A stretch of DNA of 64,000 bases from Sulfurovum sp. (lineage in GTDB: Bacteria; Campylobacterota; Campylobacteria; Campylobacterales; Sulfurovaceae). Both the position numbers and the translations under genes were made by a program. The notes below the pieces were generated by a model. The model was not told where the DNA came from and did no database searches. It saw only the letters and a program-made list of their open reading frames with translations. The stretch lies in assembly GCA_030949325.1 (NCBI GenBank), contig JAUZSQ010000081.1:227-64226 (forward strand). Reading direction: 5' to 3'. Positions 1-7,326 of this stretch are shown in pieces. Each line of letters starts with the position of its first letter. Position 1 is the first letter of the stretch.

Positions 1-868
1 CATCACCATTTCTTGCTATTAAAATATCATTTTTTGTAGTTCTTTTTCTATCAGGAAATGTATCAAAATCTGATAATACTGGATTTTTACCTGCTGTGTA
101 TGTTAGTTCGCTTCCTCTATCCCAATAACCAACATCTATAACTTCCCCACCTATTGTATAAACTATAAAATCTTTCAATCGTTTAGTTTCAAATTTTATA
201 CCCTTATCAACTCCCCTTGAAACTGTTTCATTTATAAGAGTTTGTTTTAGCTCTTTGTATTTTAAAGATTTTTCTTCAAGTAGTTTTATCTCTTTATCTA
301 TCTTTTGTGTTTGAGTGTCTAGGTAGTTTGCTATTTTTGTTTGGGTTTTTAGGGGTGGTAAGGAAATAAAAAGATTTCTGACAATATCTTTGTTTAAATT
401 TGGAATAGTTGCCATATTTCCTATTTGTCTAATATGTGTTTTTCTTCCTATAAACCACCAAAATATAAATTTACTATTAGATTTAGTAAATTTATACATA
501 ATCCCAGCATTTTGATTTGTTGCTACTTTAATATTCAATAAAGCAACACTACCTCTAGTTTGACCTTGTCCGTACATTCCTATTGCTAATGAATTAATTG
601 GATAAATCTTTAATGAATAATCATCTTTTGCTAATTGAGTAACTTTATATTTTGTATTATTAACAATAGTGTTTTTAATATCAGTAGTATTTAACCAAGG
701 GATAATACCATCATCATAGTATTTCATATTTGTACTTAAGGGTGTTGAACCACTTCCAAAATATCTAAATGTGTCCTTAACCCTTTTAACTCCCCACTCA
801 CTAGGAATCTTCCCCAACCACTCTAAACCACTCTCTTTATAACTCTCATATTTTTTGAATCTATTCAT
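1..868 (-). CDS. hsdS: Type I R-M specificity subunit HsdS (5' part; runs off window start; not in ORF track)
   Basis: Manual translation from ATG at 868: MNRFKKYESYKESGLEWLGKIPSEW..GSGSTP..LPPLKTQTKIANYLDTQTQKIDKEI, typical HsdS conserved segments around TRD1; SD AGGAG 8 nt upstream. Confidence 0.9.
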   Translation of the reverse strand, partial: MNRFKKYESYKESGLEWLGKIPSEWGVKRVKDTFRYFGSGSTPLSTNMKYYDDGIIPWLNTTDIKNTIVNNTKYKVTQLAKDDYSLKIYPINSLAIGMYGQGQTRGSVALLNIKVATNQNAGIMYKFTKSNSKFIFWWFIGRKTHIRQIGNMATIPNLNKDIVRNLFISLPPLKTQTKIANYLDTQTQKIDKEIKLLEEKSLKYKELKQTLINETVSRGVDKGIKFETKRLKDFIVYTIGGEVIDVGYWDRGSELTYTAGKNPVLSDFDTFPDRKRTTKNDILIARNGD

Positions 869-1106
869 AAGCTTTACTCCTATGTAATACTCTACCTACT
901 ATTAATACTTCATCTTCTATGTCAAATAAGATTCTATAATTACCAATTCTTTTTCTATAAATAGGCTTATGATTTCTTAGTTTTTTTATATTTGATATAT
1001 CTGGATAATTCTCTAAATCTTTTATAGATAATAAAATATCCCTAATTAAAGATACATCTAATTTAGATATATCTTTTTGAGCTTTTTTTAAAATTTCAAC
1101 TTTCAA
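861..1106 (-). CDS. RelE/ParE-family type II toxin
   Basis: 81 aa basic protein, YRKRIGNYRILFDI..VLHRSKAY RelE/StbE signature; TTG start. Confidence 0.85.
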   Translation of the reverse strand: MKVEILKKAQKDISKLDVSLIRDILLSIKDLENYPDISNIKKLRNHKPIYRKRIGNYRILFDIEDEVLIVGRVLHRSKAYE

Positions 1107-1341
1107 TATGATACTCTTTTAGCATCTCATCAATACTTTTTATACCTATCTTATCTTTTTTTGCTTCTTCAAAAAGATTAATATCATTTAAATCTTCATT
1201 AAGTAATTCTTTTTGATTTGTAAATTGTTCTATTCTTTCTTTTAAAAATTGTTTTACTAAATCTTCTGTTTTAATATGAAGCTCTTTTGATAACTGCATA
1301 AGTTTATTTTCTAAACCCTTATCTTGTAATATTATTGCCAT
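1096..1341 (-). CDS. Putative antitoxin (RelB/DUF6290-like)
   Basis: 81 aa immediately upstream of and overlapping the toxin; acidic C-terminus EDLNDINLFEEAK..SIDEMLKEY. Confidence 0.7.
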   Translation of the reverse strand: MAIILQDKGLENKLMQLSKELHIKTEDLVKQFLKERIEQFTNQKELLNEDLNDINLFEEAKKDKIGIKSIDEMLKEYHIES

Positions 1342-1342
1342 T

Positions 1343-3367
1343 TTAAACCCCTAAACTTTTTTCAAGACTTTTCAACTCAGAATCTATATTTTCTATATCG
1401 CTCAGTATCGATTCTAGTGGTCGTAACTGCTCAGGCTTATAAAATATCTTGTTAAAGTTTATCTCTACACCTATTACATTATCAAGGAGTACAAAAGGTT
1501 TAGTGATATATTTAGCCATAAAATCATCTATATTTTTTTTATTTACCTTTTCATCTTTATCATAAGGGATTATCTCATAATCTTTTTGATAGTCTGGAAC
1601 TAATTCAGCTGTGATAGTTATAGATGCTTCTTTAGTTTTTGTAGCTTTTTTTGCACTTGATTTTATGACTATTTTTCCACAACCTAACTCTTCTTGAATC
1701 TCATCATCTTGCTTCACTATAGTCTCTTTGTCTTCAACATAAAAATAATAAACACTCTCACTAATATAAACTTTTAAATCTTTCTCTTTATAGTCTAGCT
1801 CTTTGATAGTATCTTTTATAGTGTCTAGTTGTGATATGTCTGATAGTTGAAATTCTTTTATATTTATCTCATCTTGTACTATTTTTAGTGGTGTTAGTTT
1901 GATAGATTTTTTCTTAGGTTCTAAGATACTCTCAAAAGTTCTATTTTTATAGTCAAGATTTGTAAGCATAAGTGCTTGTTTATTAAAATAAAAAAACTCT
2001 TTATCAAATACTTTTGCATAGTCGTTATCTTCAAAGTCTGTAAGTGTTTTGACTATATCTATACGGCTAAGAGAATCTACCTCTTTTCTTTTTTTACCCT
2101 TGTTTTTCTTCATAGGAGTAAACTTTTCACTAGCATTTATCATCATCACTTTGTTTTTACGATTCTCTTTTTTATCTTTGTTAAGTACCCAAAGATAGGT
2201 AAAGATTCCTGTATTAAAAAACTCATCTGTAGGTAGCTGAATGATAGCTTCTACTATGTCGGTATCGAACATCCATTTTCTTATGTTACTCTCTCCACTC
2301 CCTGCATCTCCACTAAATAGAGTTGAGCCATTGTGTACAACTACACCCATACCCTCTAAACCCATCTTAGATATAAGATGTTGCATAAAGAGTAGTTGCC
2401 CATCACTTACGGCTGGAAGAGAGTGGAATCTCCCTGTTTTATCTTGAACTATATCAGATTTAAAACCTTTCCAATCTACCCCATAAGGTGGATTTGCTAC
2501 AACTACATCAAACTCTTTATCTTGAAACTTTTGGTCAACTAAAGTATTGCCATACTCTATGTAAGCGTTCTTTCTGAATCTACTCTCTATCTTTGCCAAA
2601 GCATATAAAGCATCGTTCCAATCTTGCCCATAGGTAGCTGTGGGTCTGTTTGGATATGTTTGGTTTACTCTATCCTCTACACCATAAAGCATATTTCCAC
2701 CACCACAAGTAGGGTCATATATACTTAAAAAGTTTTCGCTCGTCTTTGTTTTTGAAAGTATAATATCTGATATTAGAGAGATAACATCATCAGGTGTGTA
2801 TTGCTCTCCTGCTGTCTCTGCTGATATATCTGCCCACTTTCTTTTTATATGTTCTTCTAGTGTTGTTATCTCACTATTATTAAATGGTTTTAAATCTATC
2901 TCACTCCACGCTTTTACAAAAGAAAAAAGTATTTTTTTGTTGTTAAGAAGTCCTGCAATACCTGAAATATCAAGATATTTATCTTCTCTTGTGTTTTTAT
3001 CTATCCCTAGTAAATCTTGTGTTTCACCATCAAAACCTTTGAGGTAGTTATCAAAATCTATCTCAAAAGTTTTATCATTTTTACAAATATCGTTTAAAGT
3101 TTTGTTGTGTTCAAACAAGTAAGTGTTATAACCTTTCTCTTGGTCTTTTATCTCATCTATAAAATCTTCAAGAGATAATGTATCTCCACTCTTTCTTAGT
3201 TCCTCTTTTAGTTCATCACCCATTCGTGAAAATCTACTCTCCACCATAATCAATGCAAAAAAAGGCATCATATACTTAGGAAAATCACTCTGCTTAATAC
3301 CTGCACCTATGAGTAAGTCTGCTGTTTGCCATACTTTTGATTCATATTTTAATATGTCTTGTTTCAT
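1343..3367 (-). CDS. hsdM: Type I R-M N6-adenine methyltransferase HsdM
   Basis: Motif I YDPTCGGGNML, motif IV VANPPYG, GEQYTP, VEAIIQLP..FFNTGI. Confidence 0.92.
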   Translation of the reverse strand: MKQDILKYESKVWQTADLLIGAGIKQSDFPKYMMPFFALIMVESRFSRMGDELKEELRKSGDTLSLEDFIDEIKDQEKGYNTYLFEHNKTLNDICKNDKTFEIDFDNYLKGFDGETQDLLGIDKNTREDKYLDISGIAGLLNNKKILFSFVKAWSEIDLKPFNNSEITTLEEHIKRKWADISAETAGEQYTPDDVISLISDIILSKTKTSENFLSIYDPTCGGGNMLYGVEDRVNQTYPNRPTATYGQDWNDALYALAKIESRFRKNAYIEYGNTLVDQKFQDKEFDVVVANPPYGVDWKGFKSDIVQDKTGRFHSLPAVSDGQLLFMQHLISKMGLEGMGVVVHNGSTLFSGDAGSGESNIRKWMFDTDIVEAIIQLPTDEFFNTGIFTYLWVLNKDKKENRKNKVMMINASEKFTPMKKNKGKKRKEVDSLSRIDIVKTLTDFEDNDYAKVFDKEFFYFNKQALMLTNLDYKNRTFESILEPKKKSIKLTPLKIVQDEINIKEFQLSDISQLDTIKDTIKELDYKEKDLKVYISESVYYFYVEDKETIVKQDDEIQEELGCGKIVIKSSAKKATKTKEASITITAELVPDYQKDYEIIPYDKDEKVNKKNIDDFMAKYITKPFVLLDNVIGVEINFNKIFYKPEQLRPLESILSDIENIDSELKSLEKSLGV

Positions 3368-3406
3368 TTTTTATTTCCTATTTATTGGTTATTGGTTTAA
3401 AGTAAA

Positions 3407-5223: not shown

Positions 5224-6234
<1,011 letters not shown>

Positions 6235-6271: not shown

Positions 6272-7326
6272 TTATAGCATAAGATTTTCAAAAAGTATAG
6301 GTTGCTCAATGCTTAAGTCTATATCTTTGTCAGCAATAGGTATAAGTTTAGGCTTGGGTTTAGGCTTGGGTTTAGGCTTGGGTTTAGGCTTGGCTCTAAA
6401 GGCTTTGATATTTTTGAGGTGTGTTTTATAAGAGCTACTAAAATCATGCTTTCCTTTTTTGTTGAGCATAAAATAGAGATAATCGGTTTTACTTGGTTTG
6501 AGTGCTGATTCTAAGGCTTCGATACTCATGGCACACAAGGGTGCAGGGGGTATGCCTCCATACTTGTAGGTATTATAATAGCTTTTGTCTTGTTTGATAC
6601 GCGTAGAAGTGACGGCTTTATGCGAATATTTACCGTAATTAAGGGTGCCATCCATTTGTAATTTCATCCCCTTATCAAGACGGTTTTGTATGACAGAAGA
6701 GACCAAAGGCATTTCTTTGGGGTCATTGGTTTCTTTTTGGATGATAGAGGCGATAATGAGTAAGAATTTTAATTCTAATTCATTGGGAATGCTATCGCAA
6801 TAGCGTTGAGTAAAAGTGACGAGCTTGATTTTAGACATAGCAAAGAGGGCTTCTATGACAGCTTTTTCATCGGCTTTTCTGGACATAGGATAAAAGCCTG
6901 AAAAAATATCTCCTTCGGTATATTTACTGATTTTTTGGTAATGTGCAAGAAGTTTTTGGGGGTCAAGGTGTAAATCATTGGCTAGACGCTTGGTGATTTC
7001 TATACGATTTTCTCCTGCATAGACTTTGACACGCATCGTTTTGGTGCTAAAATGACGTAGAGTATCAAAAAAGGGAAAACGCTCCGAAGGTAGCGCTTCT
7101 GTCATAGAGTACCACCCTTTCACAGGCATATCCAAAAAATATAAGATAAATTTATCTATCTCATAGACACTATAGCCATGGATTTGGAGTGTATCTATCA
7201 TAGTATCAATATAGAAGAGGGAAGATAAAAGGTATTTTGACCTTTGTTTACAGGGAGGAAATTATAGCCTAGGGGTAGAAGGGCTAGAAGCAGTAAGAAG
7301 ATAAATATTTTAAGTACTTTCTTCAT
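6272..7326 (-). CDS. mltG: Endolytic transglycosylase MltG (frameshift near 7210; true start with TM segment at 7326)
   Basis: IASIIQKE, NRLDKGMKLQMDGT, YNTYKYGGIPPAP, DYLYF; upstream frame MKKVLKIFIFLLLLALLPLG..TFYLPSS. Confidence 0.88.
6346..6393. repeat. Tandem repeat 4 x 12 bp (GTTTAGGCTTGG) encoding the Lys-Pro tail of MltG
   Basis: Four perfect copies read directly. Confidence 0.95.

What the first reader, a model, noticed from the sequence alone, without database searches (positions are those of the whole stretch)
1..3367. RelE-type toxin-antitoxin pair chained inside a type I R-M operon, between hsdM and hsdS
Seen: hsdM stop is 1 nt from the antitoxin start; antitoxin and toxin overlap by 11 nt (toxin uses TTG); the toxin's last codons contain the SD and ATG of hsdS (ATGAATAG, 8-nt overlap). 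There is no intergenic room for a separate TA promoter and no visible insertion scar. Known: PrrC is a toxin embedded in the EcoprrI type I locus and released when R-M is inhibited. Inference: this could be an analogous guard module, where loss of hsdM-operon expression or a phage anti-restriction protein frees a ribosome-dependent RNase, or an addiction module stabilising the R-M locus.
Basis: partly seen in the sequence, partly recalled or inferred. Interest (0 to 1): 0.75.

Follow-up and report, generated by a model that had tools for sequence, protein, structure and literature searches.

The report
RelE toxin-antitoxin pair inside restriction operon
An intact RelE-type toxin-antitoxin gene pair sits seamlessly between the methylase and specificity genes of an imported type I restriction-modification operon; this is a clean example of the already described habit of such operons to carry passenger toxin or defence genes, not a new kind of system.

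Summary
On the minus strand the order is hsdM (3367..1343), a 1-nt gap, an 81-aa antitoxin (1341..1096), an 11-nt overlap, an 81-aa TTG-started toxin (1106..861), an 8-nt overlap (ATGAATAG), then hsdS (868..1, cut by the contig end).

The toxin is a genuine RelE-family protein by Pfam, PDB profile search and a confident fold model. Both small genes are under purifying selection.

The cassette is foreign: 25-34% GC against about 40% in the flanks. It recurs with the same junctions in a metagenome contig at another chromosomal site.

Two sister loci hold a different RelE-like toxin behind the same antitoxin N-terminal domain. Two remnant loci have lost hsdM, hsdS and hsdR but kept the toxin-antitoxin pairs.

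The nearest TA-free relative (hsdM 73% identical) and 58 of 72 family loci have hsdM and hsdS directly coupled. Ten others carry different cargo in that slot (MazF, Abi_2, Fic, GmrSD, nucleases).

Embedded cargo in type I operons is already published, and this scan has noted it in other genomes, including RelE/ParE pairs.

Nothing supports a PrrC-like guard role. The most likely reading is an autonomous, co-expressed addiction or abortive-infection module. Verdict: new member of a known kind, modest interest.

The parts
1343..3367 (-). hsdM, type I R-M methyltransferase subunit (674 aa, long C-terminal extension typical of its family)
   Evidence: Pfam N6_Mtase 3e-51. PADLOC MTase_I PDLC03029 1.8e-119 over the full length. 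89% identical to hsdM of L021. dN/dS 0.12.
1096..1341 (-). Antitoxin (81 aa). Residues 1-46 are an N-terminal domain conserved with the cassette. Residues about 47-81 are the toxin-matching C-terminal part.
   Evidence: No Pfam or PDB match. The C-terminal motif D-I-x-L-F-E-E-A-K-K-D...I-K-S-I-D-E-M-L-K-E-Y-x-I-E-S is shared with antitoxins of free-standing homologous toxins (A3). The N-terminal 46 residues are conserved in six loci with two different toxins (A7). dN/dS 0.17-0.19. AF2 model is helical, pLDDT 81, fold undecided.
861..1106 (-). RelE-family toxin (81 aa, TTG start)
   Evidence: PF05016 1.2e-9. PDB profile search: M. jannaschii RelE3 at 3e-14, then other RelE proteins; the single ParE-type entry (6x0a) only at E 0.06. 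AF2 pLDDT 94.9; the top Foldseek hits are all RelE toxins (TM 0.73-0.80) and ParE ranks 24th or lower. R51, Y57, R58, H75, R76 and Y80 are invariant in 27 homologues. dN/dS 0.13-0.16.
1..868 (-). hsdS, specificity subunit (5' 289 codons in the window; 364 aa up to the contig end)
   Evidence: Methylase_S 3e-17. PADLOC Specificity_I 2.8e-56. The second target-recognition domain resembles that of G040 hsdS. The first differs, and hsdS is only 32% identical to that of L021.
1342..1352 (-). hsdM stop / antitoxin start junction with SD-like AGGGG inside the end of hsdM
   Evidence: Read directly from the sequence. TTAGGGGTTTAAAATG is identical in L021.
861..881 (-). Toxin stop / hsdS start junction (ATGAATAG) with SD AGGAG inside the toxin's last codons
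   Evidence: L021 has the same architecture (ATGAGTAA).
1048..1076 (.). 14-nt-arm palindrome / 13-bp mRNA hairpin in toxin codons 11-20 (function unknown)
   Evidence: 93% complementary arms. Folding energy -12.6 kcal/mol here and -8.7 in L021, mostly -5.6 or weaker in the other 33 homologues folded (two exceptions: L136 -14.2, L137 -7.1). Absent from loci with the alternative toxin.
3368..3392 (-). Left edge of the imported cassette: homology with the sister cassette starts about 25 nt upstream of the hsdM ATG (RBS only). The hisS stop lies 39 nt upstream of hsdM.
   Evidence: blastn boundary. The same edge is seen behind three different upstream genes (hisS, def, ABC-F). GC shifts from 25-34% to 38-43% at about 3400.

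Best explanation
A free-standing RelE-family type II toxin-antitoxin module, of a type common in this bacterial order, was captured once in the hsdM-hsdS slot of a horizontally mobile type I R-M cassette. It has been inherited with that cassette since.

It is transcribed on the hsd mRNA and translated by a chain of coupled starts: hsdM stop, 1 nt, antitoxin; an 11-nt overlap to a weak TTG toxin start; an 8-nt overlap to hsdS.

Inferred mechanism: the antitoxin's C-terminal segment wraps and neutralises the RelE toxin. If the cassette is lost, or host transcription or translation collapses (for example on phage takeover), the labile antitoxin decays. RelE then cleaves mRNA on the ribosome and arrests the cell.

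The pair therefore acts as an autonomous addiction and/or abortive-infection passenger. It stabilises and complements the R-M cassette rather than sensing the state of the R-M enzyme.

Shown: the anatomy, family assignment, intactness, co-inheritance, foreign origin, and persistence after loss of the R-M genes. Inferred: co-transcription, toxicity, neutralisation, and the trigger.
For: Anatomy and coupling signals.

RelE identity and conserved basic/aromatic residues.

Purifying selection on both genes at the level of hsdM (dN/dS 0.12-0.19, dS 0.34-0.57).

The same seven-gene architecture occurs in L021: hsdM, antitoxin, toxin, hsdS, MNT, HEPN-like, hsdR. L021 lies between def and a comM-like gene that are adjacent in this genome.

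Further loci of the same hsdM lineage (75-86% identical) carry an antitoxin/toxin pair in the same slot (L154, L155).

The closest TA-free relative (73%) has hsdM, 126 nt, then hsdS. The family default is a 4-nt hsdM/hsdS overlap: 58 of 72 loci are adjacent.

The toxin family is found in 97 of 401 genomes of the order. Apart from the sister cassette L021, the homologues examined showed no hsd neighbour: four metagenome loci and the 29 best genome loci (1.5-kb flanks). The antitoxin's C-terminal motif is shared with these free-standing pairs, so neutralisation is self-contained.

The remnants L139 and L152 lost hsdM, hsdS and hsdR but kept both TA pairs intact. This is what addiction predicts.

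A second type I locus in the same genome also carries an MNT plus a HEPN-like partner and a RhuM gene.
Against: There is no expression, toxicity or phage data.

A promoter inside the 3' end of hsdM cannot be excluded (one search is uninformative).

The antitoxin's N-terminal domain stays constant while the toxin and the antitoxin C-terminus are swapped. This hints at a cassette-specific, possibly regulatory, role that a pure passenger model does not require.

In the pneumococcal tvr type I locus, the embedded Phd-Doc homologues showed no addiction phenotype and instead lowered recombinase expression (PMC6265443).

The remnant loci also show that the TA pairs did not prevent internal deletion of the R-M genes.
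Confidence: 0.6

Rival explanations
1. Operon controller. The antitoxin, alone or with the toxin, is a DNA-binding regulator of the hsd cassette, analogous to C proteins of type II R-M systems or to TvrAT of the pneumococcal tvr locus. It would tune hsdS/hsdR expression or establishment in a new host, and toxicity would be secondary.
For: Antitoxin residues 1-46 are about 80-90% conserved across six loci, while the C-terminal part and the toxin come in two unrelated-looking versions. So the N-domain travels with the cassette, not with the toxin. By my own pattern reading (inference), the N-terminus resembles a ribbon-helix-helix: a beta strand, helix, turn with a Thr cap, helix. TvrAT is a precedent (PMC6265443).
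Against: No DNA-binding family was detected. AF2 gives one long helix. No conserved palindrome was found upstream of hsdM or of the antitoxin. The only shared upstream DNA in all six loci is about 20 nt of the hsdM 3' end. The constant N-domain can also be explained by recombination breakpoints at a domain boundary, which is usual in TA evolution.
Confidence: 0.15
2. Independent neighbour. The pair has its own promoter inside the 3' end of hsdM and is functionally unrelated to the R-M system. Its position is just a tolerated insertion site.
For: The pair and a second pair stay intact in remnants with quite different upstream DNA, so they can evidently be expressed without an intact hsdM. In Synechocystis pSYSG, a PIN toxin-antitoxin pair whose locus tags (sll8007/ssl8008) fall between those of type I R-M genes (sll8006, sll8009) is listed with its own position entry, which I read as a mapped start site (PMC4963859).
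Against: Junctions of 1-2 nt and overlaps of 4-11 nt are preserved in four loci. There is no terminator-like site on the operon strand. Co-divergence with hsdM at similar dS argues for at least shared transcription.
Confidence: 0.15
3. PrrC-like guard. The toxin is kept silent by the functioning R-M system and is released when a phage anti-restriction protein inhibits it.
For: Only the position inside a type I operon, and the existence of PrrC/EcoprrI as a precedent (PMC12707154, PMC3710099).
Against: The toxin has a cognate antitoxin whose toxin-binding motif also occurs in pairs with no R-M neighbour. It has no ABC-ATPase or HEPN domain. The TA pairs survive in loci without any R-M gene. The slot holds unrelated cargo in sister operons.
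Confidence: 0.05

Closest known systems
Passenger genes embedded in type I R-M operons: Campylobacter jejuni mlo/rlo ORFs (Miller 2005, cited in PMC5183652 and PMC11411939); R-M-embedded HEPN/Abi2/Fic/RhuM genes (PMC3710099); TgvAB in V. cholerae VPI-2 (PMC11411939); 'guilt by embedding' survey (bioRxiv 10.1101/2024.01.29.577857)
   Same: Extra toxin or defence genes lie between hsdM, hsdS and hsdR, co-oriented and tightly packed, and vary between sister operons. One of these precedents (C. jejuni) is in the phylum that the source names of the toxin homologues point to. My survey of this HsdM family reproduces the pattern: 10 of 72 loci have hsdM-hsdS inserts and 23 of 54 have hsdS-hsdR inserts.
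   Different: The cargo here is a classical RelE-type type II TA pair with fully chained translational coupling. I found no paper describing this particular pair or lineage.
RelBE type II toxin-antitoxin systems (M. jannaschii RelBE3, PDB 3BPQ; M. tuberculosis RelBE1/2; E. coli RelBE)
   Same: The toxin fold matches (TM 0.73-0.80). Conserved Arg/His/Tyr residues are present. The gene order is antitoxin first with an overlap. The antitoxin's C-terminal segment is matched to the toxin.
   Different: The antitoxin matches no RelB/DinJ/Phd family. There is no free-standing promoter region. The module is embedded in a larger operon.
TvrAT (Phd-Doc homologues) in the pneumococcal tvr type I R-M locus (PMC6265443)
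   Same: A TA-like pair lies inside a type I locus between hsdM and hsdR.
   Different: The toxin family differs (Doc, not RelE). That locus is phase-variable with a recombinase. Experiments there found regulation of the recombinase rather than addiction.
PrrC anticodon nuclease in EcoprrI (PMC12707154, PMC3710099)
   Same: A translation-targeting RNase gene lies inside a type I hsd operon.
   Different: PrrC is a single ABC-ATPase/HEPN protein masked by the R-M complex and triggered by T4 Stp. Here there is a RelE fold with its own antitoxin and no evidence of contact with the R-M enzyme.

Membership tests
RelE/ParE toxin superfamily (PF05016), RelE branch | Sequence match above the curated threshold | tested here: met
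   39 bits against a cut-off of 23, E 1.2e-9. Profile search against PDB: RelE3 at 3e-14.
RelE/ParE toxin superfamily (PF05016), RelE branch | RelE-type fold (beta strand, two N-terminal helices, then an antiparallel sheet) closer to RelE than to ParE | tested here: met
   AF2 pLDDT 94.9. Foldseek ranks 1-7 are all RelE toxins, TM 0.73-0.80; the first ParE is at rank 24.
RelE/ParE toxin superfamily (PF05016), RelE branch | Conserved basic/aromatic catalytic residues near the C-terminus | tested here: met
   R51, Y57, R58, H75, R76 and Y80 are invariant in 27 homologues. Their equivalence to E. coli RelE R61/R81/Y87 is my inference from the alignments and was not verified residue by residue.
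RelE/ParE toxin superfamily (PF05016), RelE branch | Ribosome-dependent mRNA cleavage | not testable with these tools
   Needs biochemistry.
Type II toxin-antitoxin system | Two small adjacent co-oriented genes, antitoxin first, overlapping | tested here: met
   81 + 81 aa with an 11-nt overlap.
Type II toxin-antitoxin system | Antitoxin with a DNA-binding domain and autoregulated promoter | tested here: inconclusive
   No family hit. The AF2 model is a long helix. No operator was found.
Type II toxin-antitoxin system | Protein antitoxin neutralises the toxin | not testable with these tools
   Only indirect evidence: the antitoxin C-terminus co-varies with the toxin type.
Type I restriction-modification system | HsdM with an N6-adenine methyltransferase domain | tested here: met
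Type I restriction-modification system | HsdS with two target-recognition domains | tested here: met
   The last 55-70 residues or so are lost at the contig end.
Type I restriction-modification system | HsdR helicase-nuclease in the same locus | tested here: inconclusive
   The contig ends in hsdS. The sister cassette L021 has a 1074-aa hsdR. In this genome only hsdR-like fragments in several frames exist, at the start of contig C37.
PrrC-type R-M guard | ABC-ATPase N-domain fused to a HEPN anticodon nuclease, with no separate antitoxin | tested here: not met
   RelE fold, 81 aa, with a cognate antitoxin.
PrrC-type R-M guard | Occurs (almost) only inside type I R-M loci | tested here: not met
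   No hsd gene was found in the 1.5-kb flanks of the 29 best homologous toxin loci. The metagenome homologues are free-standing.

The most novel reading that the evidence does not exclude
The antitoxin's N-terminal domain stays constant in this hsdM lineage while the toxins are exchanged. It could be a cassette-specific DNA-binding controller that ties hsd operon expression (establishment timing or the hsdS/hsdR dose) to toxin release. The R-M cassette and the RelE pair would then form one regulated unit rather than a host and a passenger.
Probability: 0.1. Interest if true: 0.6.

Novelty: new member of a known kind. Interest (0 to 1): 0.3.

Why it matters
This is a tidy natural example of how defence operons pick up toxin-antitoxin passengers. 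Type I R-M systems have restriction alleviation and are not known to cause post-segregational killing, which is documented for type II systems (established knowledge; compare PMC4231737, PMC2993543). An embedded TA pair could therefore supply the addiction that type I cassettes lack.

The lineage offers ready-made comparisons: an empty slot, two toxin versions behind one antitoxin N-domain, and remnants where only the TA pairs survive. These would make a simple experimental test of 'addiction versus regulation versus guard' easy to design. It does not open a new category.

Tried and rejected
- Promoter and terminator consensus scan: 18 promoter-like sites against 21.5 expected by chance, and no terminator on the operon strand. 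Uninformative for an AT-rich genome.
- Antitoxin fold: no match in Pfam, NCBIfam, PADLOC or PDB sequence searches. AF2 with 7 sequences gave one long helix, so ribbon-helix-helix was neither shown nor excluded.
- The palindrome at 1048-1076 as an operator for the conserved antitoxin N-domain: rejected, because it is missing in loci with the alternative toxin.
- Sliding identity between this window and L021, looking for a conserved promoter island in the hsdM 3' end: nothing stands out.
- Completing the locus: no contig overlaps the C81 end. C37 starts with hsdR-like fragments in several frames, 32-38% identical. The DNA downstream of hisS is variable in 11 congeners and gives no anchor.
- Viral contigs: only distant toxin homologues, at most 58% identical.
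- Miller 2005 (the mlo/rlo paper) is not held in the library; it is cited second-hand.
- A paper search with 'RelE' was swamped by prefix matches.
Full report
**1. Observation**

Four co-oriented genes lie on the minus strand:

| Gene | Coordinates | Size |
|---|---|---|
| hsdM | 3367..1343 | 674 aa |
| antitoxin | 1341..1096 | 81 aa |
| toxin (TTG start) | 1106..861 | 81 aa |
| hsdS | 868..1 | cut by the window/contig end |

Each downstream start is preceded by a Shine-Dalgarno-like motif inside the upstream gene: AGGGG at 1352..1348, AAAGAG at 1119..1114 and AGGAG at 881..877.

Pfam gives N6_Mtase (3e-51) for hsdM, ParE_toxin PF05016 (1.2e-9, above threshold) for the toxin, and Methylase_S (3e-17) for hsdS. 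The antitoxin has no hit.

The window starts 226 nt from the end of contig C81. hsdS can be read for 364 aa in L001 and then the contig stops, so hsdR is not visible.

**2. What the small genes are**

The toxin belongs to the RelE branch, not the ParE branch.
- Its best solved relatives are M. jannaschii RelE3 (1e-6 with the single sequence, 3e-14 with a 27-sequence profile). T. thermophilus RelE, M. tuberculosis RelE2, P. horikoshii aRelE and E. coli RelE follow. The only ParE-type entry (6x0a) scores E 0.06.
- An AlphaFold model (pLDDT 94.9) matches RelE structures at ranks 1-7 (TM 0.73-0.80). The first ParE is at rank 24.
- R51, Y57, R58, H75, R76 and Y80 are invariant in 27 homologues.

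The antitoxin matches no library. Its C-terminal 30 residues carry a motif (…LFEEAKKDK..IKSIDEMLKEY.IES). The same motif is found in the 66-70-aa antitoxins that sit upstream of free-standing homologues of this toxin. This identifies it as the toxin-binding part.

Both genes are under purifying selection relative to the sister cassette L021. dN/dS is 0.17-0.19 for the antitoxin and 0.13-0.16 for the toxin, against 0.12 for hsdM, at dS 0.34-0.57.

**3. Origin and relatives**

*Foreign origin.* The cassette is foreign DNA. GC is 25-34% up to about position 3400 and 38-43% in hisS, tmk and beyond. Among the 36 congeners searched, the best hsdM match is only 32-36% identical (three genomes).

*Sister cassette L021.* A 9.5-kb metagenome contig (L021) carries the same cassette in complete form:
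- def
- hsdM (89% identical)
- antitoxin (85%)
- toxin (88%)
- hsdS (32%, a different specificity)
- a minimal nucleotidyltransferase (MNT)
- a HEPN-like partner
- hsdR (1074 aa)
- a comM-like gene

All junctions in L021 are tight, and the hsdM/antitoxin and toxin/hsdS junctions are virtually identical to the window's. In the window's own genome, def and the comM-like gene are adjacent on contig C72. The whole seven-gene unit is therefore an island that sits at different chromosomal sites.

*Cassette edge.* Homology between the two cassettes starts only about 25 nt upstream of the hsdM ATG. The same edge is seen behind a third upstream gene in L139.

*Further loci of the lineage.* A metagenome scan with the antitoxin found more loci:
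- L154 (hsdM 86% identical) and L155 (hsdM 75% identical) have hsdM, an antitoxin variant, a toxin variant, then hsdS. The gaps are 2-14 nt and the overlaps 4 nt. The toxin variant is a different 94-aa RelE/ParE-like protein, 33% identical to the window's toxin and without a Pfam hit.
- The antitoxin variant keeps residues 1-46 of the window's antitoxin (about 80-90% identical) but has a different C-terminus. The toxin-binding half and the toxin were therefore exchanged as a unit behind a constant N-terminal domain.
- L139 and L152 are remnants. Only 20-150 nt of the hsdM 3' end survive (plus 46 nt of the 5' end in L139). hsdS and hsdR are gone. The RelE-like pair and the MNT/HEPN-like pair are both intact.

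*Empty slot.* The closest TA-free relative (G040, another family of the same order, hsdM 73% identical) has hsdM, 126 non-coding nt, hsdS, then hsdR.

**4. How unusual is it?**

| Slot | Loci scored | Adjacent or overlapping | Short gap | Insert >250 nt |
|---|---|---|---|---|
| hsdM-hsdS | 72 | 58 | 4 | 10 |
| hsdS-hsdR | 54 | 25 | 6 | 23 |

The usual hsdM/hsdS junction is a 4-nt overlap.

The hsdM-hsdS inserts are:
- a MazF/PemK toxin preceded by a 74-aa ORF (probable antitoxin)
- Abi_2
- Fic/DOC
- YhcG/DUF1016 nucleases
- PDDEXK_3
- a Schlafen/AlbA2 protein
- GmrSD
- an unknown overlapping pair

The hsdS-hsdR inserts include NYN, PIN plus MazE, DUF4411 plus an M78 peptidase, Macro, AAA_15/21 ATPases and Fic.

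The window's own genome has a second type I locus on contig C28: hsdR (split over three frames), RhuM, hsdS, MNT, a HEPN-like partner, then hsdM.

Conversely, the toxin family is common in the order: 97 of 401 genomes and 47 of 96 genera. None of the 29 best loci in other genomes has an hsd gene within its 1.5-kb flanks. Four metagenome homologues, 70-77% identical, are free-standing pairs.

So a common free-standing TA was captured once by this R-M lineage.

**5. Literature**

[quoted passage not shown] Other documented cases:
- HEPN, Abi2, Fic/Doc and RhuM genes embedded in R-M operons, discussed as multi-pronged defence (PMC3710099).
- A Phd-Doc pair in the pneumococcal tvr type I locus, which showed no addiction phenotype and instead restrains the recombinase (PMC6265443).
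- A PIN toxin-antitoxin pair in Synechocystis pSYSG whose locus tags fall between those of type I R-M genes (PMC4963859).
- TgvAB, embedded in the V. cholerae type I cluster (PMC11411939).
- A systematic survey of 17,432 genes embedded in BREX, DISARM and type I R-M systems (bioRxiv 10.1101/2024.01.29.577857).

This scan's own notes list 251 earlier findings of TA-like cargo in hsd operons on other DNA. They include RelE/ParE pairs between hsdM and hsdS. Those are unverified leads, but they agree with my survey.

**6. Mechanism**

*Best supported (confidence about 0.6).* The pair is an autonomous RelE-type TA module co-expressed with the hsd genes. It acts as an addiction and/or abortive-infection passenger.

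Arguments for this reading:
- The module is intact and under selection.
- Its neutralisation motif is shared with free-standing pairs.
- It is co-inherited with the cassette.
- The TA pairs survive after the R-M genes decay.

Type I systems have restriction alleviation and are not known to be addictive (established knowledge; compare PMC4231737, PMC2993543). A TA pair would therefore add stability.

*Rivals.*
- Controller role for the conserved antitoxin N-domain (0.15). The toxin swap behind a constant N-domain is the one observation that the passenger model does not need.
- Independent neighbour with its own promoter inside hsdM (0.15).
- PrrC-like guard (0.05). Disfavoured because the toxin has its own antitoxin, lacks PrrC's domains, is mostly found outside R-M loci, and persists without R-M genes.

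**7. Verdict**

This is a new member of a known kind, with interest of about 0.3.

Noticed in passing
L139:1-1740 and L152:5600-7300 (metagenome contigs): These are remnants of the same cassette. hsdM is reduced to 20-150 nt (plus its first 46 nt in L139), and hsdS and hsdR are absent. Both the RelE-like pair and the MNT/HEPN-like pair remain intact and tightly overlapping. The TA pairs outlive the restriction genes.
   Followed up: partly
window 1096-1341 versus L154:1562-1822, L155:247-513, L152:6001-6267: The antitoxin N-terminal 46 residues are constant across the lineage. The C-terminal half and the downstream toxin exist in two versions (81-aa and 94-aa toxins). This is a module swap at a domain boundary.
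   Followed up: partly
window 1048-1076: A 14-nt-arm palindrome (13-bp mRNA hairpin, -12.6 kcal/mol) lies in toxin codons 11-20. It is present in the two R-M-embedded copies. Most of the 33 other homologues folded give -5.6 kcal/mol or weaker; two give hairpin-like energies (L136 -14.2, L137 -7.1). It might damp toxin translation or mark a processing site. No covariation evidence is possible with two sequences.
   Followed up: partly
own genome contig C28:1-5934 (outside the window): A second type I locus has embedded cargo: hsdR split over three reading frames, a RhuM-family gene, hsdS, an MNT nucleotidyltransferase and its HEPN-like partner, then hsdM running off the contig end.
   Followed up: partly
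window 3368-3406; L021:772-950; L139:118-130: The cassette's left edge lies about 20-25 nt upstream of the hsdM ATG (RBS only) behind three unrelated upstream genes (hisS, def, an ABC-F ATPase). The cassette may depend on read-through from host genes, or it may move by an unknown, fairly precise mechanism. The first 46 nt of hsdM are unusually conserved and are retained in the L139 remnant.
   Followed up: no
window 5224-5726 (minus strand): coaD (phosphopantetheine adenylyltransferase) appears split into a 61-aa N-terminal ORF (5726..5541) and a 115-aa C-terminal ORF (5571..5224) that overlap. This is a frameshift or an assembly error.
   Followed up: no
window about 6290-6400: The 309-aa ORF at 7201..6272 contains a run of Lys-Pro repeats (KPKPKP...) near its C-terminus, encoded by a short tandem DNA repeat. 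The opposite strand reads GLGLGL. Possible length-variable tract.
   Followed up: no
L152:3942-5654: In the remnant locus, an AAA_21/AAA_15 ABC-type ATPase (315 aa) and an unannotated 253-aa protein sit directly upstream of the hsdM remnant. This may be another two-gene defence module.
   Followed up: no
own genome contig C37:1-1000: The contig begins with hsdR-like segments (32-38% identical to the hsdR of G040 and L021) spread over several frames with stops. It is either a decayed hsdR or the poorly assembled continuation of this locus.
   Followed up: partly
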